Below, in pieces: positions 1-18,450 of a stretch of DNA of 32,000 nt; within the stretch, counting starts at the first letter, position 1; each line of letters begins with the position of its first letter. Location of the stretch: positions 1,500,001-1,532,000 of the forward strand of contig NC_013202.1 in assembly GCF_000023965.1 (NCBI RefSeq), read 5' to 3'. Position numbers and translations under genes: made by a program. The DNA is from Halomicrobium mukohataei DSM 12286 (GTDB lineage Archaea > Halobacteriota > Halobacteria > Halobacteriales > Haloarculaceae). The notes below the pieces were generated by a model. That model saw nothing but the letters and a program-made list of their open reading frames with translations. It had not been told where the DNA came from and searched no databases.

Positions 1-180
1 CGTGTGATCAAGATACTCGCGGAGGCCGTGAATCGCCACGATCACCCAATCTGCGTAGCCGTTTTCTCCTTCTTCGTACGCTGGATCTGGTTCGCCGACG
101 ACGGCTTTTTGAGCAAGCGAGACAACCCGATCAGTGAAGCGGGCGAGTTTGCTGGACACAAACTCGTCTTCCCGCTTCAC
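1..180 (-). CDS. 5' part of an IS-type transposase gene (haloarchaeal IS5/ISH8-like N-terminus) that continues past the left window edge
   Basis: I translated the minus strand by hand from GTG at 180-178, with an in-frame TAG at 186-184 just upstream. This gives 60 open codons to the edge: VKREDEFVSSKLARFTDRVVSLAQKAVVGEPDPAYEEGENGYADWVIVAIHGLREYLDHT. The pattern RFT..VVSLAQ...GYADW.IV..H.LR.YLD matches my recollection of ISH8-type IS5-family transposase N-termini. It is absent from the ORF track because it has no stop in the window. The family call is from memory only. Confidence 0.45.
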   Translation of the reverse strand, partial: MKREDEFVSSKLARFTDRVVSLAQKAVVGEPDPAYEEGENGYADWVIVAIHGLREYLDHT

Positions 181-323
181 TCCCTAGTAAGTTAGACATT
201 TAGCCGCTCTTACTAGCGTCTAAACACGCCCCATCATTCCACAATTCAGGAGCTCACGCAAATACACGGTGATCTTTTAATTAACTTCCCTACAATTGCA
301 GTTCGTAGGACAGCTGGAGCAGA

Positions 324-331
324 TTATAAAA
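324..331 (+). promoter_or_regulatory. TATA-box-like element TTATAAAA upstream of, or overlapping the start of, the small ORF
   Basis: ATTATAAAAC at 323-332 recurs at 2053-2062 in front of the second radical-SAM gene. It lies only 6 nt before ATG 337. If it is the promoter, the TSS would fall near 355 and the first in-frame ATG would be 406. An alternative AT-rich box, TTTTAATTAA at 275-284, would fit ATG 337. Confidence 0.3.
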
Positions 332-336
332 CAAGC

Positions 337-681
337 ATGAATAATTTTTATGGGAATGCCTCATGGGAAGCCGCAAACAGTGATGATGAATTTCGGACAA
401 TCTATATGTCCCGTCTTGCTGAAACCGGTCGACCGGTTCAAGAATATATACCAGTTCGCAGTGGAGGACAATTCTTCTATGATATGATCTACTGCACAAG
501 ACAAACCAAAGGCGGGAGTCCCTATATACAGGTCTTAGAAGACATGAAGGAGAAAATCGAACAACTGACCGGTGAAGATGTAGAGCGGATTCTTCGGTTT
601 ATGCGAGGAGAACAGACTAGTCTGGATCTTTTCGATCAGGGAGACGACCAACAGACTGGTTTAGGAGACTTCATGGATTAG
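337..681 (+). CDS. Small hypothetical protein (114 aa, or 91 aa from ATG 406) with two C-terminal PIP-box-like motifs
   Basis: ATG ORF lying 51 nt upstream of, and on the same strand as, the radical-SAM gene. The C-terminal tail reads EQTSLDLFDQGDDQQTGLGDFMD*. This contains QTSLDLF (nt 613-633) and QTGLGDFM (nt 652-675), which fit Q-x-x-L-x-x-F. I recognise no other domain. Confidence 0.55.
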   Translation: MNNFYGNASWEAANSDDEFRTIYMSRLAETGRPVQEYIPVRSGGQFFYDMIYCTRQTKGGSPYIQVLEDMKEKIEQLTGEDVERILRFMRGEQTSLDLFDQGDDQQTGLGDFMD

Positions 682-732
682 CTAAGTCCATACTCTTACT
701 AGGCCTCGGAGGATACGGTCAATCAAGTAATC

Positions 733-2004
733 ATGAGGCTTCATCACCAAAGGGACCAAACACAGATAGAGATTCTCCATCAAGGAGAGTCTGTAGAAAC
801 TTTCAATCAAACTCCAAAGCTGGACACTCTGCGTGAGTGTAGCAAAAATGTGGGCAAACCTTTAGAGCGAATTGATTTGTGGGATAGGGGATTATTTTGT
901 GGTCACTGCGAGGAACCCATTACTGATCGGTTTAGTGCTGATATTAACGGAAATCTACTTTGTTGGGATTGTGCCATGAATATCGACGCTGAAAGCGATC
1001 AGAGAGGAGTTTCACAAACCACTGATCCCACGAAGGCCGTTCTTTCGAACTCCGCGCTTCATCACAAAAATCTCTGTAACTACGTGATCAACGTGGCCAC
1101 TGGATGCACTCACGGATGCAAATTCTGCTACGTTCCTTCAACACCGAATATTAAGACCCGAGGAGATATGCTCAAAGAAAGAGCAGATGTAGAAGATAGT
1201 CAACGGGAATGGGGAAGCTACCTATTATACCGCGACGATCTCCCCGAACGCCTTGCTCGCAAACTAGACCGAAAGCAGAAGTGGGAAAATGAAGACGGTG
1301 GCCGCGGTGTCGTCATGATTTCCAGCGGAACAGACTGCTATCAGGATCGTCGGGCCGCTCAGATCACCCGGGGTTGTGTTATCGAACTCGTCAATCATGG
1401 GCGTCCGGTTCGCATACTCACTCGGAGTCCCGCTGTCGTACGTGACCTAGATGTGTTCAAAGCCGCAGATGGGCTGGTAACTGTCGGATCGTTGATCCCG
1501 TGCCTTGATGACGAACAGGTTCGATCTATCGAACCCGGCGCACCAGCTCCATCCACACGACTCAATGCTCTCGAAGAGATCAGCAATGCTGGTGTCCCAG
1601 TTTACGTTTCGATGTCCCCAACGTATCCGACACAGGACCGCGAAGACCTTCGTGAGCAGCTACGGATATTCAAAGAGCGCCTTGATCCTGATGTCGTATT
1701 CCACGAACCGATCAACCCACGTGGAGGCAACTTCGAGATGACTGTTCAGGCCGCTCGTGACGCAGGACAGGAAGAACTGGCCAATGAACTCGAAAAACTC
1801 CGAGACCGAGACAACTGGATCGAGTACTCGAAGCGTCAACTTACCGCTGTAGAGGAGATCGGCGAAGAACTCGATATTCCGATTCATCTTTGGCCGGATA
1901 AGCAGTTCGTAAAGTACGTGAAAGAGGGTAAAGAGCACTTCAAACGCCAGATCGAAAAGAACGACTCGCCAGAAGATTACCCACTCGGCCCAACCTCTGC
2001 CTAA
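733..2004 (+). CDS. Radical-SAM protein (SplB/COG1533 'DNA repair photolyase'-like) with an N-terminal CxxC...CxxC zinc-ribbon; paralog A
   Basis: 423-aa ATG ORF. The CX3CX2C triad is GCTHGCKFCY (C125/C129/C132, nt 1105-1128). The zinc-ribbon-like motif is CGHC-x17-CWDC (nt 898-972). Downstream blocks are SSGTDCYQD, RILTRSP and IEPGAPAP, followed by a C-terminal VVFHEPINPRG. Long identical blocks are shared with the next gene. Confidence 0.85.
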   Translation: MRLHHQRDQTQIEILHQGESVETFNQTPKLDTLRECSKNVGKPLERIDLWDRGLFCGHCEEPITDRFSADINGNLLCWDCAMNIDAESDQRGVSQTTDPTKAVLSNSALHHKNLCNYVINVATGCTHGCKFCYVPSTPNIKTRGDMLKERADVEDSQREWGSYLLYRDDLPERLARKLDRKQKWENEDGGRGVVMISSGTDCYQDRRAAQITRGCVIELVNHGRPVRILTRSPAVVRDLDVFKAADGLVTVGSLIPCLDDEQVRSIEPGAPAPSTRLNALEEISNAGVPVYVSMSPTYPTQDREDLREQLRIFKERLDPDVVFHEPINPRGGNFEMTVQAARDAGQEELANELEKLRDRDNWIEYSKRQLTAVEEIGEELDIPIHLWPDKQFVKYVKEGKEHFKRQIEKNDSPEDYPLGPTSA

Positions 2005-2053
2005 ATCACGTCGACGGCTTTAGTTTCACTTTCACTCCGGCATCTCCTCGATA

Positions 2054-2061
2054 TTATAAAA
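2054..2061 (+). promoter_or_regulatory. TATA-box-like element TTATAAAA for radical-SAM paralog B
   Basis: ATTATAAAAC at 2053-2062 matches the element at 323-332. It is centred about 37 nt upstream of ATG 2094. Assuming a typical archaeal TATA-to-TSS spacing, this favours ATG 2094 with a short leader over the GTG at 2067. Confidence 0.35.
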
Positions 2062-2093
2062 CTAGGGTGTCAAGTCATCAGTGGGACCCACCT

Positions 2094-3365
2094 ATGAAAC
2101 TAGAAACTGAGCGGGACCCTGACGGCGGCTGGTACGATCGGTTTGTCCAGCTCGTCGATGATCAAGGGCACGTCGTCGAGGAATTCGGGAAAAATCCAAC
2201 GCTCAACGAGCTTCGGGAAGCAGAGCGCCGCCACAGCACTCGAATCAACCTCTGGCAACAGGGTCTCGTTTGTGACGAATGTGGGAATCAAATTAACGAG
2301 CGATTCAGCGCTCGACAGGACGGACATCTTCTGTGCTGGGACTGTGCTACCAGCTCGGAAAGTCACGAACAGGGTGGGCTACGAATTAACGCGGACCCGA
2401 CTAAGAGCGTTCTGAGTGAATCGAAGCTCCACAAAAAGAGCCTCTGTGACTACGTGATTAACGTCGCAACGGGCTGCCGTCACGGGTGTAAGTTCTGCTA
2501 TGTTCCATCGACACCAGCGGTCGACAACCGCGATGAAATGCTCGATGACCGTGCCGATGTCGACGACCCACAGCAAGACTGGGGTGACTACCTGCTCTAC
2601 CGTGACGATCTCCCCGAGCGTGTTCAGCGAGGACTAGAGGAAACTGACTTCCAGAACTGGAAGACCACCGACCGTGGGCGGGGTATCGTCATGCTCTCCA
2701 GCGGGACAGACTGCTACCAGGACCGACGGGCCGCACAGATCACACGCGGTTGTGTTCATGAACTCATCGAGCATGATATCCCGACTCGGATACTCACCCG
2801 CAGTCCGAACGTTACCCGCGACATCGACCTTTTCAAACAGGCCAATGGGTCTCTCACTGTAGGGTCCTCCATCCCGAGTTTCGATACATCCTTGATTAGT
2901 GTCCTTGAGCCAAACGCCCCTCCACCTATGGCTCGATGGGAGGCACTGAACGAATTGTTCAAAGCTGGAGTCCCGCGCTTCGTATCGTTCTCGCCCACCT
3001 ATCCGACGATGGGTCGGGAGGATATTCACGAGGCACTTAGCTGGTTCTCCGCCATTGATCCCGAAGTGGTCTTCCACGAGCCAATAAACCCTCGTGGGAT
3101 CAATTTCGAAATGTGTATCGAGGCACTGGAGGACGAGGGATTAGAGTCTGAAGCGGACGAATTCCGAAAACTGCAGCGTCAAGGGAAATGGGTGGATTAC
3201 GCGCTCGACCAGATCGAAATGGTTCGCGACGTAGCAACTCATTTCGAGAATATTACTATCCATACCTGGCCCGGTCGTGATCTGATTGAGGCAACTAACG
3301 GCACTCAGCAAAGGAAATTCAAGCAGATGCGTCGACAGATATCCCCAGAACCGTTTGCGGAGTAG
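2094..3365 (+). CDS. Radical-SAM protein (SplB/COG1533-like) with an N-terminal zinc-ribbon; paralog B
   Basis: The ORF track starts at GTG 2067. I prefer the in-frame ATG 2094 (MKLETERD...) because of the TATA-like box at 2054-2061. The triad is GCRHGCKFCY (nt 2475-2498) and the zinc-ribbon-like motif is CDEC-x17-CWDC. Blocks identical to paralog A: YVINVATGC.HGCKFCYVPSTP, YLLYRDDLPER, SSGTDCYQDRRAAQITRGCV, VVFHEPINPRG.NFEM. Confidence 0.85.
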   Translation: MKLETERDPDGGWYDRFVQLVDDQGHVVEEFGKNPTLNELREAERRHSTRINLWQQGLVCDECGNQINERFSARQDGHLLCWDCATSSESHEQGGLRINADPTKSVLSESKLHKKSLCDYVINVATGCRHGCKFCYVPSTPAVDNRDEMLDDRADVDDPQQDWGDYLLYRDDLPERVQRGLEETDFQNWKTTDRGRGIVMLSSGTDCYQDRRAAQITRGCVHELIEHDIPTRILTRSPNVTRDIDLFKQANGSLTVGSSIPSFDTSLISVLEPNAPPPMARWEALNELFKAGVPRFVSFSPTYPTMGREDIHEALSWFSAIDPEVVFHEPINPRGINFEMCIEALEDEGLESEADEFRKLQRQGKWVDYALDQIEMVRDVATHFENITIHTWPGRDLIEATNGTQQRKFKQMRRQISPEPFAE

Positions 3366-3396: not shown

Positions 3397-3693
3397 CTAA
3401 TCGTCGTCGCCCTTGTACGCCCCTTCGCGCTTCCGAATGCTCTCGACTCGGAGCATCTTCGAATCACGCATAAGCCGACAGCCGAGACGATATCCACCGA
3501 CACGAAGTTTCTGAAACGGCGAGTTCGTCAGCGGTTCGAGAAAGTCGTCGGGATCGCGCCACTCGGAGGTGACGACTTCTTCCAGTTTGTCGATGATCCG
3601 CTGCTGGCTATCGCTCCCCAACTGTGAGAACTGGTTTTCAGCCCGCGGCGAGAATTCCCAGTCCCACCCGTCGTTACTCGTCGTCGGACCCAT
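3397..3693 (-). CDS. Type II toxin, RelE/ParE family
   Basis: I trimmed the track ORF 3397-3780 to the ATG at 3693: MGPTTSNDGWDWEFSPRAENQFSQL...QKLRVGGYRLGCRLMRDSKMLRVESIRKREGAY. The W.W.FS..A...L and LRVG.YRL....I..R..aY pattern is typical of RelE/ParE toxins. It overlaps the upstream RHH gene by 20 nt (3674-3693). Confidence 0.8.
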   Translation of the reverse strand: MGPTTSNDGWDWEFSPRAENQFSQLGSDSQQRIIDKLEEVVTSEWRDPDDFLEPLTNSPFQKLRVGGYRLGCRLMRDSKMLRVESIRKREGAYKGDDD

Positions 3694-3961
3694 ACTTCGC
3701 TTTGATGTCGTCGCTCGAAATGCCGTCACCCTCGTCGAACTGCGCTTCGCTGATCGCGATGTCCTTCCACACGCCCGCACCCTCGGGGTGGTTCACTGAA
3801 TCACGGAGCGCGTAGCGGATGAACTCGCTACGGCTGTTGAAGCCTCGCTCACGCCACGTCTCGTCGACCACGTCGAGGAACGACCGCGAGATTCGGAGGT
3901 TGATCCGGTCGATCTCAGGATCAGGGTCGTTTGAGTCGGCTTCTGACATACGCCTGTACAT
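3674..3961 (-). CDS. Type II antitoxin, ribbon-helix-helix (CopG/RHH) family
   Basis: RINLRISRSFLDVVDETWRERGFNSRSEFIRYALRD is a classic RHH strand-helix-helix. It lies directly upstream of, and overlapping, the RelE-like gene. Start is ambiguous: GTG 3970 (track), ATG 3961 (used here) or ATG 3949. Confidence 0.8.
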   Translation of the reverse strand: MYRRMSEADSNDPDPEIDRINLRISRSFLDVVDETWRERGFNSRSEFIRYALRDSVNHPEGAGVWKDIAISEAQFDEGDGISSDDIKAKYGSDDE

Positions 3962-3982
3962 CTGTTGCACTCACACAAAACG

Positions 3983-4217: not shown

Positions 4218-4916
4218 TCAGGTGTGGACTTTTCTCGAAATGTACGACACTAGCCGAATATACATCGTGGTGATAATTGCTGCTGAAGCGCCCGAGAGTA
4301 ATGATATCACTGCAGCATCTGGAGCCCTCCACTTTCCGATGGCACCGATCGGTCTCTCAACCACAGCTGGTGTAATCAACACTTGGATGAGAGAATAAGC
4401 GTGGATAATGACGAACACGATGCCGCCAAAAAACAATATAGACAAAATTGTGGTGAATATGGCTCGAAATGCGCGCTTAGCTGTTTCAGAGTCTCTGCCA
4501 AAAATTTCGAAACGTGAGAGTTGTTCGATTGCCACTTTTGAGCCGCTGTCAATGACAAAGCCACCCAAAGCGACCAATATCCCCAAGATGATCCCTGCCG
4601 AAAGACGAGGCGAGAACTCTCTTGCGGGAACTGCGTCAAGATCTACCAGCAACTGAACCCAGGATTTGCTCAATTCGACTGAAAAGAAAAACCCGACAAC
4701 GGCAAGAATAGAGATTAGTGCCGCCCCCTGAATGCCGGAGACTGAGATCTTTGATCTCCAAGAAGTCGTCTCTGAACGTTCCTCTGATCCGTTTACATCA
4801 CCTTCTGGACGCTCCGAAACCACGAGTATCAGAAACCCCAGCGTGATGAGCCCCCATCCGACTAATTTGGCGTCGATAATTGAATTCGTAGAGTCGTCTG
4901 ATCTCACAGTGAACAC
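4218..4916 (-). CDS. Multi-pass membrane protein of unknown function, low GC
   Basis: 232-aa ORF with a GTG start at 4916. It has several long hydrophobic segments: LVGWGLITLGFLILVV, GAALISILAVVGFFF, AGIILGILVALGGFVI and FTTILSILFFGGIVFVIIHA. An AT-rich TATA-like box lies about 30 nt upstream. I recognise no family. Confidence 0.7.
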   Translation of the reverse strand: MFTVRSDDSTNSIIDAKLVGWGLITLGFLILVVSERPEGDVNGSEERSETTSWRSKISVSGIQGAALISILAVVGFFFSVELSKSWVQLLVDLDAVPAREFSPRLSAGIILGILVALGGFVIDSGSKVAIEQLSRFEIFGRDSETAKRAFRAIFTTILSILFFGGIVFVIIHAYSLIQVLITPAVVERPIGAIGKWRAPDAAVISLLSGASAAIITTMYIRLVSYISRKVHT

Positions 4917-5032: not shown

Positions 5033-5117
5033 TATAGTAGCCATCGAAAATCAATACACACCCGATCGCACGACAGCAGTGCGATCGGGTGTGTAAATCG
5101 TTTCAATTGTTACTATA
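5033..5117 (+). mobile_element. 85-bp self-complementary MITE-like element, copy A
   Basis: Sequence: TATAGTAGCCATCGAAAATCAATACACACCCGATCGCACGACAGCAGTGCGATCGGGTGTGTAAATCGTTTCAATTGTTACTATA. The termini are inverted (TATAGTA.C ... G.TACTATA). The core is a perfect 16-bp stem, ACACACCCGATCGCAC / GTGCGATCGGGTGTGT, around a 7-nt loop. The reverse complement of 18367-18450 is nearly identical. Confidence 0.8.
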
Positions 5118-5258
5118 ATACCTCGCGCTGGGAACGGCGTCGCTGGTTCTGGTGACTGGACTGAACTCCCTAGCGCGCAGGAAGTCGTCGCCGGCACCGC
5201 CGCGTCCGGGCTCGTCGTCGAGGCCCCGAACGACTACGTCAGCAGCTACACGGGGTGA
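5118..5258 (+). pseudogene. Possible 3' remnant of a disrupted gene abutting the MITE
   Basis: The frame is open from inside the element to TGA 5256-5258: ...PRAGNGVAGSGDWTELPSAQEVVAGTAASGLVVEAPNDYVSSYTG*. It has strong GC3 bias and acidic haloarchaeal-like composition but no start codon. It could equally be a chance open frame in GC-rich DNA. Confidence 0.2.
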
Positions 5259-5559
5259 TCCCGATGCGACTGGCTACCCTCATAGCTACGGGCTGGTCGG
5301 CGTCATCGCGGGTGTCCGCCTCGGGACAGGCCGGACGTGGCTCGTCGCTGTCGGAGTCTTGCCGGTGCAGCGTGTCGGCGGTCGCGCGCCGGCTCACAGC
5401 CACGTACCTCTGGCTAACGAGAACCGACAGAGGGCAGGGTGGCCAACTGGATTCCAGTGGCACTCGGATTTTATACGACTCTTCTCAGATCGCCAAGTGC
5501 GAGAATCCGAGCGTCTTCGAGGCTGTAATTGCGATTCCCCAGCGGTCAACGATCGTGCG

Positions 5560-5564
5560 AAAAA
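5560..5564 (-). terminator. Oligo-T tract (T5 on the minus strand) immediately 3' of tRNA-Ile
   Basis: The minus strand reads ...GGCCCA TTCG TTTTT. An oligo-T run a few nt after a tRNA is the usual archaeal termination signal. Confidence 0.45.
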
Positions 5565-5568
5565 CGAA

Positions 5569-5642
5569 TGGGCCGACGCGGATTTGAACCGCGAACCTCC
5601 CGGTTATCAGCCGAGCGCTCAACCTGATTGAGCTACCGGCCC
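5569..5642 (-). tRNA. tRNA-Ile (anticodon GAU)
   Basis: Minus strand: GGGCCGGTAGCTCAATCAGGTTGAGCGCTCGGCTGATAACCGGGAGGTTCGCGGTTCAAATCCGCGTCGGCCCA. It folds as a cloverleaf: acceptor GGGCCGG/TCGGCCC (one G-U), D stem GCTC/GAGC, anticodon stem CTCGG/CCGGG with loop CTGATAA, and T arm CGCGG-TTCAAAT-CCGCG. CCA is not encoded. Confidence 0.95.
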
Positions 5643-18381: not shown

Positions 18382-18450
18382 AACGATTGACACACCGATC
18401 GCACTGCCGTCGTGCGATCGGGTGTGCATTGATTTTCAATGGCTACTATA
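18367..18450 (-). mobile_element. 84-bp self-complementary MITE-like element, copy B (inverted relative to copy A)
   Basis: The reverse complement is TATAGTAGCCATTGAAAATCAATGCACACCCGATCGCACGACGGCAGTGCGATCGGTGTGTCAATCGTTTCAATTGTTACTATA. By hand alignment it differs from copy A by 4 substitutions and a 1-nt deletion. Confidence 0.8.

What the first reader, a model, noticed from the sequence alone, without database searches (positions are those of the whole stretch)
337..3365. Low-GC three-gene module: a PIP-box small protein plus two tandem zinc-ribbon/radical-SAM (SplB/COG1533-like) paralogs, a candidate undescribed DNA-directed system
Seen in sequence:
(a) ORFs 733-2004 and 2094-3365 are tandem paralogs with long identical blocks: YVINVATGC.HGCKFCYVPSTP, YLLYRDDLPER, SSGTDCYQDRRAAQITRGCV, RILTRSP and VVFHEPINPRG.NFEM.
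(b) Both keep an intact CX3CX2C triad (A at nt 1105-1128, B at nt 2475-2498). About 45 residues upstream, both have a CxxC-x17-CxxC zinc-ribbon-like motif (A at nt 898-972).
(c) They are preceded on the same strand by a 114-aa ORF that ends in two PCNA-interacting-peptide-like motifs.
(d) All three lie in DNA of much lower GC than the surrounding chromosome, next to an IS fragment, a TA pair and a MITE.

Established knowledge: CX3CX2C ligates the [4Fe-4S] cluster of radical-SAM enzymes. The block order GC.HGC.FCY / S.TD.YQ / T[RK]S / EP.AP resembles, from memory, the COG1533 'DNA repair photolyase' branch. Its characterised member, spore photoproduct lyase, acts directly on DNA.

Inference: this is a horizontally acquired pair of DNA-acting radical-SAM enzymes, possibly a heterodimer. 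It carries its own zinc-ribbon N-domain and a sliding-clamp-binding partner. Lesion repair, DNA modification and antiviral defence are all plausible functions.

I know of no described system with this architecture. I cannot run searches, so novelty is unverified.
Basis: partly seen in the sequence, partly recalled or inferred. Interest (0 to 1): 0.85.

Follow-up and report, generated by a model that had tools for sequence, protein, structure and literature searches.

The report
IS-broken TcmP plus radical-SAM pair
The three genes are a mobile-element copy of an annotated but unstudied gene module (a methyltransferase-like protein, TcmP, plus radical-SAM enzymes); the "small PIP-box protein" is only the tail of a TcmP gene cut by an insertion sequence, and that tail looks like a sliding-clamp docking peptide, so the module probably works on DNA at the replication fork.

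Summary
The interpretation needs three corrections.

1. The 114-aa ORF (337-681) is not a small protein. [quoted passage not shown] An IS5-family element ending at about nt 232 has cut off its 5' part.

2. The architecture is not undescribed. NCBI already annotates tcmP followed by two radical-SAM genes in other haloarchaea. TcmP-like proteins are also components of the PADLOC candidate defence systems PDC-M30 and PDC-M41. I found no experimental study of any of them.

3. Paralogs A and B are genuine radical-SAM proteins of the COG1533/SPL neighbourhood, but they fail the score cut-offs of SPL, PA0069, Rv2578c and mobile-pair-B.

New findings:
- TcmP models as an RlmJ-like Rossmann methyltransferase.
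- 82 of 86 haloarchaeal TcmPs end in Q-x-x-L-x-[DE]-F, a PIP-like motif. 25 of 34 cyanobacterial TcmPs end in a QLxLF-like beta-clamp motif.
- One cyanobacterial homolog of the radical-SAM enzyme is fused to Dcm and N6A DNA methyltransferase domains. Another sits next to dnaN.

Most likely function: DNA modification tethered to the sliding clamp. Repair and defence remain live alternatives. The copy in this window is probably crippled.

The parts
1..232 (.). End of an IS5-family insertion sequence that truncates tcmP
   Evidence: blastn gives 93.5% identity over nt 1-232 to a Natrinema plasmid, and 70-90% identity to many haloarchaeal plasmids. Some of these matches lie under annotated IS5 family transposase genes. 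Independent short-read assemblies break 135-160 nt upstream of the 114-aa ORF, as expected at a repeat boundary.
232..681 (+). 3' remnant (last ~150 codons) of tcmP, the three-Cys-motif partner protein gene. The annotated 114-aa ORF 337-681 (Hmuk_1574) is the longest ATG-started piece.
   Evidence: Frame 1 reads ...HHSTIQELTQIHGDLLINFPTIAVRR... upstream of the ATG, preceded by stop codons. The ORF is 87% identical to the C-terminus of the 333-aa Halosimplex TcmP (L002), which scores 85 bits on TIGR04474 against a cut-off of 53. P0121 identifies the ORF as Hmuk_1574 of Halomicrobium mukohataei DSM 12286.
613..633 (+). Proximal PIP-like motif QTSLDLF at the end of the folded TcmP C-domain
   Evidence: It is conserved as G-x-Q-x-x-[LM]-x-x-[FY] in haloarchaeal orthologs. 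A similar motif ends many non-halophile TcmPs. It may be intrinsic to the family rather than a clamp-binding site.
652..675 (+). Distal C-terminal PIP-like motif QTGLGDFM, after an acidic linker
   Evidence: 82 of 86 haloarchaeal TcmPs have Q..[LIMV]..[FWY] in their last 11 residues, against a shuffle mean of 0.33 (maximum 2). None of 120 partner radical-SAM proteins has it. The tail is disordered in the model: pLDDT is below 50 for residues 310-332.
733..2004 (+). Radical-SAM paralog A (423 aa): N-terminal Cys4 zinc-ribbon domain (Cys codons nt 898-972) plus a radical-SAM core (CX3CX2C at nt 1105-1128)
   Evidence: PF04055 E 6.8e-15. PA0069 family 98.5 bits against a cut-off of 360. There are 1716 homologs, which NCBI names SPL family radical SAM protein. 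The fold search gives only weak matches to radical-SAM enzymes; among the radical-SAM enzymes matched, SPL entries have the best query-normalised TM-score (0.37; 0.44 on the target).
2094..3365 (+). Radical-SAM paralog B (423 aa): Cys4 zinc ribbon (nt 2271-2345) plus a radical-SAM core (CX3CX2C at nt 2475-2498)
   Evidence: 52% identical to A. PF04055 E 6.1e-13. B forms a separate orthologous clade that always co-occurs with an A-clade or S-clade paralog.
3397..3970 (-). Context: ParE-like and RHH (CopG) toxin-antitoxin-like pair on the same low-GC island
   Evidence: RHH_1 scores 24.4 bits (cut-off 20.5). ParE_toxin scores 17.6 bits, below its cut-off of 23. Genes were called here in independent assemblies.
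5033..5642 (.). Context: island border, with a MITE-like palindrome (5033-5117) and tRNA-Ile(GAT) (5569-5642, minus strand)
   Evidence: The repeat has a copy at 18395-18450. ARAGORN finds the tRNA. GC rises from about 48% to more than 60% here.

Best explanation
What it is (shown). The region is a haloarchaeal copy of the TcmP / three-Cys-motif radical-SAM module. It lies on an integrated low-GC mobile element that ends near tRNA-Ile in Halomicrobium mukohataei. The intact form of the module is tcmP followed by two paralogous radical-SAM genes, A and B. Each paralog has an N-terminal Cys4 zinc ribbon. In this genome an IS5-family element has cut off the 5' ~55% of tcmP. That part encodes the Rossmann core with the SAM-binding motif.

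How it most likely works (inferred). TcmP is an RlmJ-like Rossmann methyltransferase-fold protein. Its disordered acidic tail ends in a sliding-clamp docking peptide: a PIP box for PCNA in archaea, and a QLxLF-type motif for the beta clamp in cyanobacteria. I propose that TcmP rides on the clamp behind the replication fork, engages a base in newly made DNA, and works with the [4Fe-4S]/SAM radical enzyme or enzymes. Together they would install or complete a covalent DNA base modification that marks the DNA of the element or its host. A and B would act as non-redundant subunits or as successive steps.

Because tcmP is broken, the copy in this window is probably inactive or only partly active.
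For: Identity of the upstream gene:
- Full-length neighbours of the radical-SAM genes score 57-179 bits on TIGR04474, against a cut-off of 53.
- The window remnant is 87% identical to the C-terminus of one of them.
- PGAP annotates the same trio in Haladaptatus.

Truncation.

Conserved linkage:
- A TcmP-family ORF adjoins the radical-SAM gene in about 64 of 77 loci: cluster 1 in 56 loci and cluster 9 in 9, with one locus carrying both. These span Halobacteria, Cyanobacteria and one Thermoplasmata MAG.
- A Bathyarchaeia TcmP overlaps a Pfam-SPL radical-SAM gene.

Fold:
- The TcmP model has pLDDT 81.5 and pTM 0.83.
- Its best PDB match is the E. coli m6A rRNA methyltransferase RlmJ, E 6e-8, TM-score 0.55 on the target. 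Trm1 and COMT follow.
- Invariant D..G.G, GSP and D178 fit methyltransferase motifs I and IV.

Clamp tether:
- Haloarchaeal tails: 82 of 86 carry a PIP-like motif. Cyanobacterial tails: 25 of 34 carry Q[LIF].[LF][FL]. Shuffle means are at most 0.33. Cross-domain counts are 0 of 86 and 2 of 34.
- The published consensus motifs are QxxI/L/MxxFF/Y and QL(S/D)LF (PMC2737543; PMC9690074).
- Met in the last PIP position, as in the FM of the window, is reported for the replicative polymerases of Haloferax (PMC2737543).

DNA link:
- In Hormoscilla (L035) the radical-SAM domain is fused in one 1178-aa ORF to a Dcm C5-cytosine methyltransferase domain and an N6A-methyltransferase-like domain.
- In Stenomitos (L062) the gene order is radical SAM, dnaN, lexA.
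- In L036 an LCM-type methyltransferase takes the place of TcmP.

Paralogs: A and B are separate, conserved clades, and B never occurs alone.

Mobile context: tyrosine recombinase, Orc1/Cdc6 and plasmid locations.
Against: - No chemistry was tested. Neither the substrate nor the product is known.
- In the window-type TcmP subgroup, motif IV is D-N-Q-G rather than (D/N)PP(Y/F). This TcmP may bind SAM or DNA without methylating.
- Clamp binding rests on sequence motifs alone.
- The proximal motif follows a conserved helix and occurs widely. Among the named examples, archaeal TcmPs from Bathyarchaeia and Methanomethyliaceae end in Q-K-T-L-F. The rule "QxxLF means bacterial" therefore fails outside the two sets compared, and part of the signal could be a motif intrinsic to the family.
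- 4 of 25 haloarchaeal loci (L003, L004, L008, L012) have TcmPs without a PIP tail.
- Most sequences within each set are related, so the counts are not independent events.
- The model of A is poor across the cluster-binding region (residues 85-165, pLDDT below 50), and its fold matches are weak (E about 3e-3).
- The dnaN adjacency is a single locus.
- Neighbours such as McrBC, GmrSD, a DUF1156 methylase with a helicase, and TA genes fit a defence island as well as a modification module.
Confidence: 0.5

Rival explanations
1. Clamp-coupled DNA repair. The radical-SAM enzymes would directly reverse a replication-blocking lesion by SPL-like radical chemistry, for example an intrastrand crosslink. 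TcmP would recruit them to PCNA at stalled forks.
For: The family lies in the COG1533/SPL neighbourhood. There is a published archaeal precedent: nreB, which encodes a PIP-bearing protein, lies next to an SplB-like gene, and NreA needs its PIP motif to repair mitomycin C damage (PMC4929162). One locus carries lexA and dnaN next to the radical-SAM gene, and another has a SprT-like gene nearby.
Against: The module is carried on mobile elements, plasmids and low-GC islands rather than in core genomes. A methyltransferase-fold partner, and a fusion to Dcm and N6A DNA methyltransferases, fit modification better than repair. The proteins fail the SPL cut-offs.
Confidence: 0.2
2. Anti-virus or anti-plasmid defence, or abortive infection. 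The module would use clamp docking to reach replicating invader DNA, or to shut down replication, and the radical-SAM enzyme would damage it. Alternatively the module is the modification half of an R-M-like system.
For: TcmPs match the A components of the PADLOC candidate systems PDC-M30 and PDC-M41, up to 108 bits. Neighbours include McrBC, GmrSD, a DUF1156 methylase with a helicase, and a TA pair in this window. In S. meliloti, tcmP lies next to hna (locus tags SMa2243 and SMa2245) and rises with it in the nolR+ strain (PMC12445080). Bacterial toxins such as SocB are known to act through the clamp-binding motif (PMC9690074).
Against: The radical-SAM partners A, B and S and their cyanobacterial homolog match nothing in PADLOC. 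PDC systems are candidates only. No nuclease or other obvious effector is conserved in the module. No self/non-self discrimination component was identified.
Confidence: 0.2
3. RNA modification. TcmP would be an RlmJ-like rRNA or tRNA methyltransferase, and the radical-SAM enzyme would act on RNA as RlmN and Cfr do. The C-terminal motifs would have nothing to do with clamps.
For: The best structural neighbours of TcmP are RNA methyltransferases: RlmJ, Trm1 and aTrm4. Viral fold matches are mostly RNA methylases and capping enzymes.
Against: The C-terminal tails differ by domain of life in the way clamp-binding peptides do. Other evidence points to DNA: the fusion to DNA methyltransferases, mobile-element carriage, patchy distribution, and the dnaN-lexA adjacency. 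Foldseek similarity at about 10% identity shows the fold class, not the substrate.
Confidence: 0.07
4. One reading: an autonomous three-gene system in which a dedicated 114-aa PIP-box adaptor protein recruits a zinc-ribbon radical-SAM heterodimer to PCNA.
For: The ORF is intact from ATG to stop. It keeps both PIP-like motifs and is annotated as Hmuk_1574.
Against: The frame continues as TcmP sequence upstream of the ATG and is cut by an IS5 end. In the other loci with a TcmP-family neighbour, that ORF is about 270-480 aa wherever the gene is intact; the few shorter pieces are split or contig-truncated genes. The database search found only one cluster of the 114-aa form, from Halomicrobium.
Confidence: 0.03

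Closest known systems
TcmP (three-Cys-motif partner protein, NCBIfam TIGR04474) paired with a DUF5131 / phage Gp37/Gp68 family protein, on bacterial plasmids and prophages
   Same: Both have a TcmP-family Rossmann protein encoded next to a protein with a radical-SAM-like three-Cys motif, on mobile DNA or in defence-island contexts. One Acidovorax TcmP also ends in a QGSLF-type motif.
   Different: Here the partner is a PF04055/COG1533-type radical-SAM enzyme with CX3CX2C. DUF5131 has CX6CX2C, and the profile comparison shows no similarity (hhalign probability 0.4%). The haloarchaeal form has two paralogous partners with Cys4 zinc ribbons. Neither pair has a known function.
Archaeal NreB + SplB-like gene pair and the PCNA-dependent repair factor NreA (Giroux and MacNeill 2016, reviewed in PMC4929162)
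   Same: A PIP-tailed protein of unknown chemistry is encoded next to an SplB-like radical-SAM enzyme in archaea. A Cys4 metal-binding N-domain occurs in the system.
   Different: Nre proteins are an archaea-specific family, and the TcmPs scanned match no Pfam family other than GMT-wHTH. Nre genes are chromosomal core genes, whereas this module is mobile. In this module the Cys4 domain sits on the radical-SAM enzyme, not on the PIP-bearing partner.
Spore photoproduct lyase (SPL/SplB; PF20903, TIGR04070)
   Same: Both have a radical-SAM TIM-barrel core with CX3CX2C. SPL acts directly on DNA. Among the radical-SAM enzymes matched by the model of A, SPL entries have the best query-normalised TM-score (0.37; 0.44 on the target). 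NCBI names the homologs SPL family radical SAM protein.
   Different: A and B score 19.4 and 12.6 bits on PF20903 (cut-off 27), and 11.6 bits on TIGR04070 (cut-off 400). A profile search of PDB sequences finds no hit. There is no sporulation context. A and B have an extra zinc-ribbon domain and a methyltransferase-like partner.
PA0069, Rv2578c and "radical SAM mobile pair protein B" families (COG1533 branch, NCBIfam)
   Same: These are the best-scoring curated families for A, B, S and the cyanobacterial homologs. An intein-containing variant also exists in this family, as it does in Rv2578c.
   Different: All scores are far below the curated cut-offs: 98 against 360, 76 against 430, and 59 against 410. 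These families are themselves uncharacterised.
Clamp-tethered maintenance DNA methylation (eukaryotic DNMT1 PIP box; from general knowledge, not tested here)
   Same: The concept is shared: a methyltransferase-fold enzyme docks on the sliding clamp through a PIP-type peptide so that it can act on newly replicated DNA.
   Different: There is no homology beyond the Rossmann fold. The system here also needs a radical-SAM enzyme, and its product is unknown.

Membership tests
Radical SAM superfamily (PF04055) | CX3CX2C cluster-binding triad | tested here: met
   A has it at residues 125-132 and B at 128-135. It is present in 91 of 91 homologs.
Radical SAM superfamily (PF04055) | Pfam score above the gathering threshold | tested here: met
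   A scores 56.1 bits and B 49.7 bits, against a cut-off of 29.5.
Radical SAM superfamily (PF04055) | Partial TIM-barrel fold resembling solved radical-SAM enzymes | tested here: inconclusive
   Foldseek hits to PFL-AE, SuiB, SPL, Elp3 and LipA are weak: E 3e-3 to 2e-2, query-normalised TM-scores of at most 0.37. The cluster-binding region is modelled at pLDDT below 50.
Spore photoproduct lyase (PF20903 / TIGR04070 / TIGR03886) | Family HMM score above the curated cut-off | tested here: not met
   PF20903: 19.4 and 12.6 bits against 27. TIGR04070: 11.6 against 400. TIGR03886: 13.1 against 437.
Spore photoproduct lyase (PF20903 / TIGR04070 / TIGR03886) | Repair of 5-thyminyl-5,6-dihydrothymine; catalytic Cys/Tyr H-atom relay | not testable with these tools
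   No alignment to SPL is reliable enough to map the catalytic residues. The PDB sequence-profile search found no hit.
PA0069 / Rv2578c / rSAM mobile pair B (NCBIfam) | Score above the curated cut-off | tested here: not met
   98.5 against 360, 76.5 against 430, and 58.8 against 410 for A. B scores lower.
TcmP (TIGR04474) | HMM score above the cut-off of 53 bits | tested here: inconclusive
   The 114-aa window ORF alone gives no hit. Its full-length ortholog in L002, 87% identical over the remnant, scores 85 bits, and other neighbours score 57-179 bits. The window therefore holds a truncated member.
TcmP (TIGR04474) | Encoded next to a protein with a three-Cys (radical-SAM-like) motif | tested here: met
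   tcmP lies 51 nt upstream of A. This adjacency holds in about 64 of 77 loci: cluster 1 in 56 loci and cluster 9 in 9, with one locus carrying both.
Canonical TcmP-DUF5131 pair | Partner is a DUF5131 / Gp37-Gp68 family protein | tested here: not met
   A and B have no DUF5131 hit in Pfam. hhalign of the A1 profile against an Acidovorax DUF5131 protein gives probability 0.4%. The canonical pairs were seen in L082-L084.
PCNA-interacting proteins (PIP box) | Qxx[ILM]xx[FWY][FWYLM]-type peptide at a disordered terminus | tested here: met
   QTGLGDFM lies at residues 106-113 of 114. 82 of 86 haloarchaeal TcmPs carry the motif. The tail is disordered in the model. The consensus comes from PMC2737543.
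PCNA-interacting proteins (PIP box) | Physical binding to PCNA | not testable with these tools
   No complex prediction or experiment was available.
PADLOC candidate defence systems PDC-M30 / PDC-M41 | All system components present | tested here: not met
   TcmPs hit the A components, at up to 108 bits. None of the radical-SAM partners hits any PADLOC model.
Nre-SplB-like pair | Partner belongs to the Nre family | tested here: not met
   Seven full-length TcmPs scanned against Pfam give only GMT-wHTH or nothing, so no Nre-family hit at the E <= 0.01 reporting limit. The TcmP fold is a Rossmann methyltransferase.

The most novel reading that the evidence does not exclude
TcmP / radical-SAM modules would be a widespread, mobile DNA-modification machinery that is tethered to the sliding clamp and so coupled to replication. 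A methyltransferase-fold subunit docks on PCNA in archaea or on the beta clamp in bacteria, through a peptide suited to each domain of life. It presents bases in nascent DNA to a radical-SAM enzyme. The product would be a DNA base modification not yet described, used for self-marking or for evading restriction.
Probability: 0.3. Interest if true: 0.85.

Novelty: new variant of a known kind. Interest (0 to 1): 0.6.

Why it matters
TcmP and its three-Cys-motif partners are annotated in many genomes: 5546 clusters at 50% identity match the TcmP profile. Yet the full-text search of the held paper library found TcmP only as an entry in gene tables.

The clamp-docking tails are the main new point. 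They are PIP-like in haloarchaea and QLxLF-like in cyanobacteria. Together with the methyltransferase fold and the fusion to DNA methyltransferases, they turn an anonymous gene pair into a concrete hypothesis that can be tested: radical-SAM chemistry on DNA, delivered by the sliding clamp.

This would add a new class of client to both PCNA and the beta clamp. It would also bear on the open question, raised for the NreB-SplB pair, of what SplB-like enzymes do in organisms that make no spores.

For this particular window the practical message is a caution. The "small protein" is an artefact of an IS insertion. Experiments should use an intact locus.

Tried and rejected
- Searching with the tcmP remnant alone found only two clusters. 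The family became visible only through clustering of neighbouring genes.
- PADLOC with the three window proteins gave nothing.
- Sequence-profile searches of PDB sequences gave nothing for the radical-SAM profile. For TcmP they gave only a chance hit to CytB.
- The fold search of the model of A was weak because residues 85-165 are poorly modelled.
- The viral fold library returned only generic methyltransferases.
- The viral-contig scan found one real homolog (L076, 50% identity) at a contig end, so its context is missing.
- Fetching the chromosome upstream of the window failed. Only short Logan contigs carry the gene, so the 5' half of tcmP beyond the IS could not be examined.
- The hypothesis that A and B are diverged DUF5131 proteins was rejected.
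- I tried to show that PIP-type tails are archaeal and QxxLF-type tails bacterial among 147 diverse representatives. This was only partly possible, because few carry organism names. The named QKTLF-ended cases are archaeal, which goes against a simple rule.
- The Thermoplasmata neighbours gave no Pfam hits, so a link to Nre could not be tested.
- Literature searches for COG1533 with DNA modification, DUF5131, PDC-M30/M41, and clamp-binding methyltransferases found no functional study.

Full report
**Observation**

The window comes from Halomicrobium mukohataei DSM 12286. The 114-aa ORF is Hmuk_1574, and protein A is 100% identical to a Halomicrobium protein on a 3,110,487-bp contig.

- ORFs at 337-681, 733-2004 and 2094-3365 lie on the plus strand.
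- A and B are 52% identical (E 2e-151).
- Both carry CX3CX2C, at nt 1105-1128 and nt 2475-2498.
- Both carry an upstream CxxC-x17-CxxC, at nt 898-972 and nt 2271-2345.
- GC is 44-58% over the first 5 kb, against 63-75% for the rest of the window.
- An RHH/ParE-like pair lies at 3397-3970 on the minus strand.
- A 56-nt palindromic repeat at 5033-5117 recurs at 18395-18450.
- tRNA-Ile(GAT) at 5569-5642 marks the border of the island.

**What the two large proteins are**

Both pass the Pfam Radical_SAM threshold: 56.1 and 49.7 bits against 29.5. Their best curated relatives are the COG1533-type families PA0069, Rv2578c and "radical SAM mobile pair protein B". All of these score far below their cut-offs: 98.5 against 360, 76.5 against 430, and 58.8 against 410. 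Pfam SPL gives only a 26-residue match, at 19.4 bits against 27.

PADLOC has no match. A profile search of PDB sequences finds nothing. The AlphaFold model of A has pLDDT 71.9 and is poor over residues 85-165. It gives only weak matches to radical-SAM enzymes. Among the radical-SAM enzymes matched, SPL entries have the best query-normalised TM-score, 0.37, or 0.44 on the target.

So A and B belong to the SPL/COG1533 neighbourhood but to none of its curated families.

The family is large. The search returned 1716 hits, mostly haloarchaeal, which NCBI names "SPL family radical SAM protein". NCBI calls the Halomicrobium copy of A at 342 aa, which omits the conserved zinc-ribbon N-domain.

**What the "small protein" is**

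I fetched 78 related loci and clustered all ORFs in them. The 114-aa ORF fell into a cluster whose members are typically about 290-480 aa (median 381) and lie directly next to the radical-SAM gene. With the related cluster 9, such an ORF adjoins the radical-SAM gene in about 64 of 77 loci across Halobacteria, Cyanobacteria and one Thermoplasmata MAG.

[quoted passage not shown] Some also carry a GMT-like wHTH domain.

In the window, frame 1 continues as TcmP sequence upstream of the ATG, reading …HHSTIQELTQIHGDLLINFPTIAVRR…. The remnant is 87% identical to the Halosimplex ortholog over the 114-aa ORF. The homology runs back to about nt 232, where it meets stop codons.

nt 1-232 is 93.5% identical to an element found on many haloarchaeal plasmids. 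Some of those matches are annotated as IS5 family transposase. Independent short-read assemblies break at the same place.

The ORF is therefore the 3' remnant of a tcmP gene disrupted by an insertion sequence. It lacks the Rossmann core.

**Anatomy of the module elsewhere**

A neighbour-joining tree of 91 homologs shows three haloarchaeal clades:
- S, which is short and has no zinc ribbon;
- A, which has a zinc ribbon;
- B, which has a zinc ribbon.

There is also a cyanobacterial clade with no zinc ribbon, and a Thermoplasmata outgroup.

Three gene arrangements occur:
- tcmP, A and B on one strand, as in this window;
- an S gene and a B gene transcribed divergently, with tcmP beside S in either orientation;
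- tcmP with S alone.

B never occurs without A or S, which argues that the paralogs are not redundant.

The triad is present in 91 of 91 proteins. The four ribbon Cys are present in 32 of 32 A-clade and B-clade proteins. Cys115 is shared by the haloarchaeal and cyanobacterial proteins. Cys202 replaces the Pro of the usual TDPYQ motif, and does so only in haloarchaea.

Neighbouring genes in haloarchaeal loci include a tyrosine recombinase, Orc1/Cdc6 and small wHTH proteins. Several loci are on plasmids. PGAP annotates the Haladaptatus plasmid trio as tcmP plus two "radical SAM protein" genes, next to a DUF1156 methylase and a helicase.

**What TcmP looks like**

A model of P0172, one of the closest full-length orthologs found (82% identical to the Halosimplex TcmP), has pLDDT 81.5 and pTM 0.83. 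Its best PDB matches are the E. coli 23S rRNA m6A2030 methyltransferase RlmJ (E 6e-8, TM-score 0.55 on the target), then the related DUF519 protein, then Trm1 and COMT.

The invariant residues are D74-x3-G78-x-G80, G93-S94 and D178. They fit SAM-binding motif I and motif IV. In the wHTH subtype, motif IV reads D-P-F-G-[YFW]. In the window subtype it reads D-N-Q-G, so methyl transfer by this subtype is uncertain.

Residues 310-332, the acidic linker and tail, are disordered in the model.

**The tails**

Among 120 TcmPs from the database:
- 82 of the 86 acidic, haloarchaeal proteins have Q..[LIMV]..[FWY] within their last 11 residues. The consensus is Q-[ST]-[SG]-L-x-[DE]-F, followed by 0-2 residues. 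The shuffle mean is 0.33 and the maximum is 2.
- None of the 120 haloarchaeal radical-SAM partners has such a motif.
- 25 of the 34 cyanobacterial TcmPs end in Q[LIF].[LF][FL], for example KQLSFF, KQLRLF and YQLSLF. The shuffle mean is 0.09.
- The cross-domain counts are 0 of 86 and 2 of 34.

These patterns match the published consensus motifs: QxxI/L/MxxFF/Y for PCNA (PMC2737543) and QL(S/D)LF for the beta clamp (PMC9690074). That paper also reports Met in the last PIP position for the replicative polymerases of Haloferax, as in the FM of the window.

There are caveats:
- The proximal motif (G-x-Q-x-x-L-x-x-F) follows a conserved helix and is common among 147 diverse representatives.
- The few representatives that carry organism names are archaeal, including ones that end in QKTLF (Bathyarchaeia, Methanomethyliaceae). 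A Heimdallarchaeota TcmP ends in QSSLNDWY.
- Four haloarchaeal loci lack the tail.
- The sequences within each set are related to one another.

**Independent links to DNA**

- In Hormoscilla (L035) a single 1178-aa ORF fuses a Dcm C5-cytosine methyltransferase domain (98 bits), an N6A-methyltransferase-like segment, and this radical-SAM domain. No TcmP is present at that locus.
- In L036 an LCM-type methyltransferase sits where TcmP would be.
- In Stenomitos (L062) the radical-SAM gene is followed by dnaN (329 bits) and lexA.
- A Bathyarchaeia TcmP overlaps a genuine Pfam-SPL radical-SAM gene next to McrBC.

**Comparison with what is known**

On bacterial plasmids the canonical partner of TcmP is a DUF5131 / "phage Gp37/Gp68" protein with CX6CX2C. 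A and B are unrelated to it at the profile level.

TcmPs match PADLOC candidates PDC-M30A and PDC-M41A, but the radical-SAM partners do not.

The open-access literature that mentions TcmP does so only in gene tables. DUF5131, PDC-M30 and PDC-M41 likewise have no functional study.

The nearest conceptual precedent is the archaeal NreB / SplB-like gene pair, together with the PIP-dependent repair factor NreA (PMC4929162). Its authors asked what SplB-like enzymes do in archaea.

**Conclusion**

The identity of the locus is secure, at about 0.9: an IS-disrupted tcmP plus two COG1533-like radical-SAM paralogs on an integrated element.

The mechanism is inferred. Clamp-tethered radical-SAM modification of nascent DNA is my leading reading, at about 0.4-0.5. 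Clamp-coupled repair and defence each stand at about 0.2. Because tcmP is broken, the copy in this window is probably not fully functional.

Noticed in passing
L064:8001-9461 and L070:2188-3500: The Prochloron and Paraprochloron homologs of the radical-SAM gene carry an insertion of about 500 nt directly after the CX3CX2C motif. They hit the NCBIfam model for intein-containing Rv2578c (104 bits). This is probably an intein at the same site as in actinobacterial SplB-like genes.
   Followed up: partly
L062:7995-10846: In a Stenomitos MAG the radical-SAM gene is followed on the same strand by dnaN (the beta clamp, TIGR00663, 329 bits) and lexA (125 bits). No TcmP is present at this locus.
   Followed up: partly
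L035:6336-9872: A single 1178-aa ORF in a Hormoscilla MAG fuses a Dcm-type C5-cytosine methyltransferase, an N6A-methyltransferase-like segment and the radical-SAM domain (CLHGCTFC at residue 593).
   Followed up: partly
L036:3742-4557: A leucine carboxyl methyltransferase (LCM) family gene (PF04072, 170 bits) is transcribed divergently from the radical-SAM gene at a locus without TcmP.
   Followed up: no
window 5033-5117 and 18395-18450: A 56-nt palindromic, MITE-like element occurs twice in the window (95% complementary arms). One copy sits at the edge of the low-GC island.
   Followed up: no
window 5569-5642: tRNA-Ile(GAT) on the minus strand lies where GC rises to chromosomal levels. It is a likely integration target for the island. 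No att repeat was searched for, because the other end of the island is outside the window.
   Followed up: no
window 4218-4916 (-): A 232-aa ORF with several hydrophobic segments lies on the low-GC island and has no Pfam match.
   Followed up: no
window 733-975: NCBI annotates the Halomicrobium protein A at 342 aa (P0002), starting 81 codons downstream. This omits the Cys4 zinc-ribbon domain, which is conserved in all 32 A-clade and B-clade homologs.
   Followed up: yes
L087:1-5921: In a Bathyarchaeia MAG, a Pfam-SPL radical-SAM gene overlaps tcmP, and the pair lies immediately downstream of McrBC restriction genes.
   Followed up: partly
L084:1-7166: An Acidovorax plasmid carries this gene order: DEAD/DEAH helicase, GIY-YIG nuclease, DUF5131, two tandem tcmP paralogs, PIN-domain protein. 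The first TcmP ends in …RQGSLFKSPEVLAQ, which resembles a beta-clamp motif.
   Followed up: no
L001:6281-6553, L002:6562-6831, L011:5316-5591 and 10 other haloarchaeal loci: An ORF of about 90 aa (cluster 5; no NCBIfam match) recurs in 13 haloarchaeal loci. It usually lies on the same side as tcmP, from about 0.1 to a few kb away. In this window its expected position is beyond the IS.
   Followed up: no
L060:9503-11296 and L081:372-6759: Defence-type neighbours of the module: a GmrSD type IV restriction enzyme in Calothrix, and a DUF1156 methylase (HmaB/PglX-like) with a PDC-S28-like helicase on the Haladaptatus plasmid.
   Followed up: no
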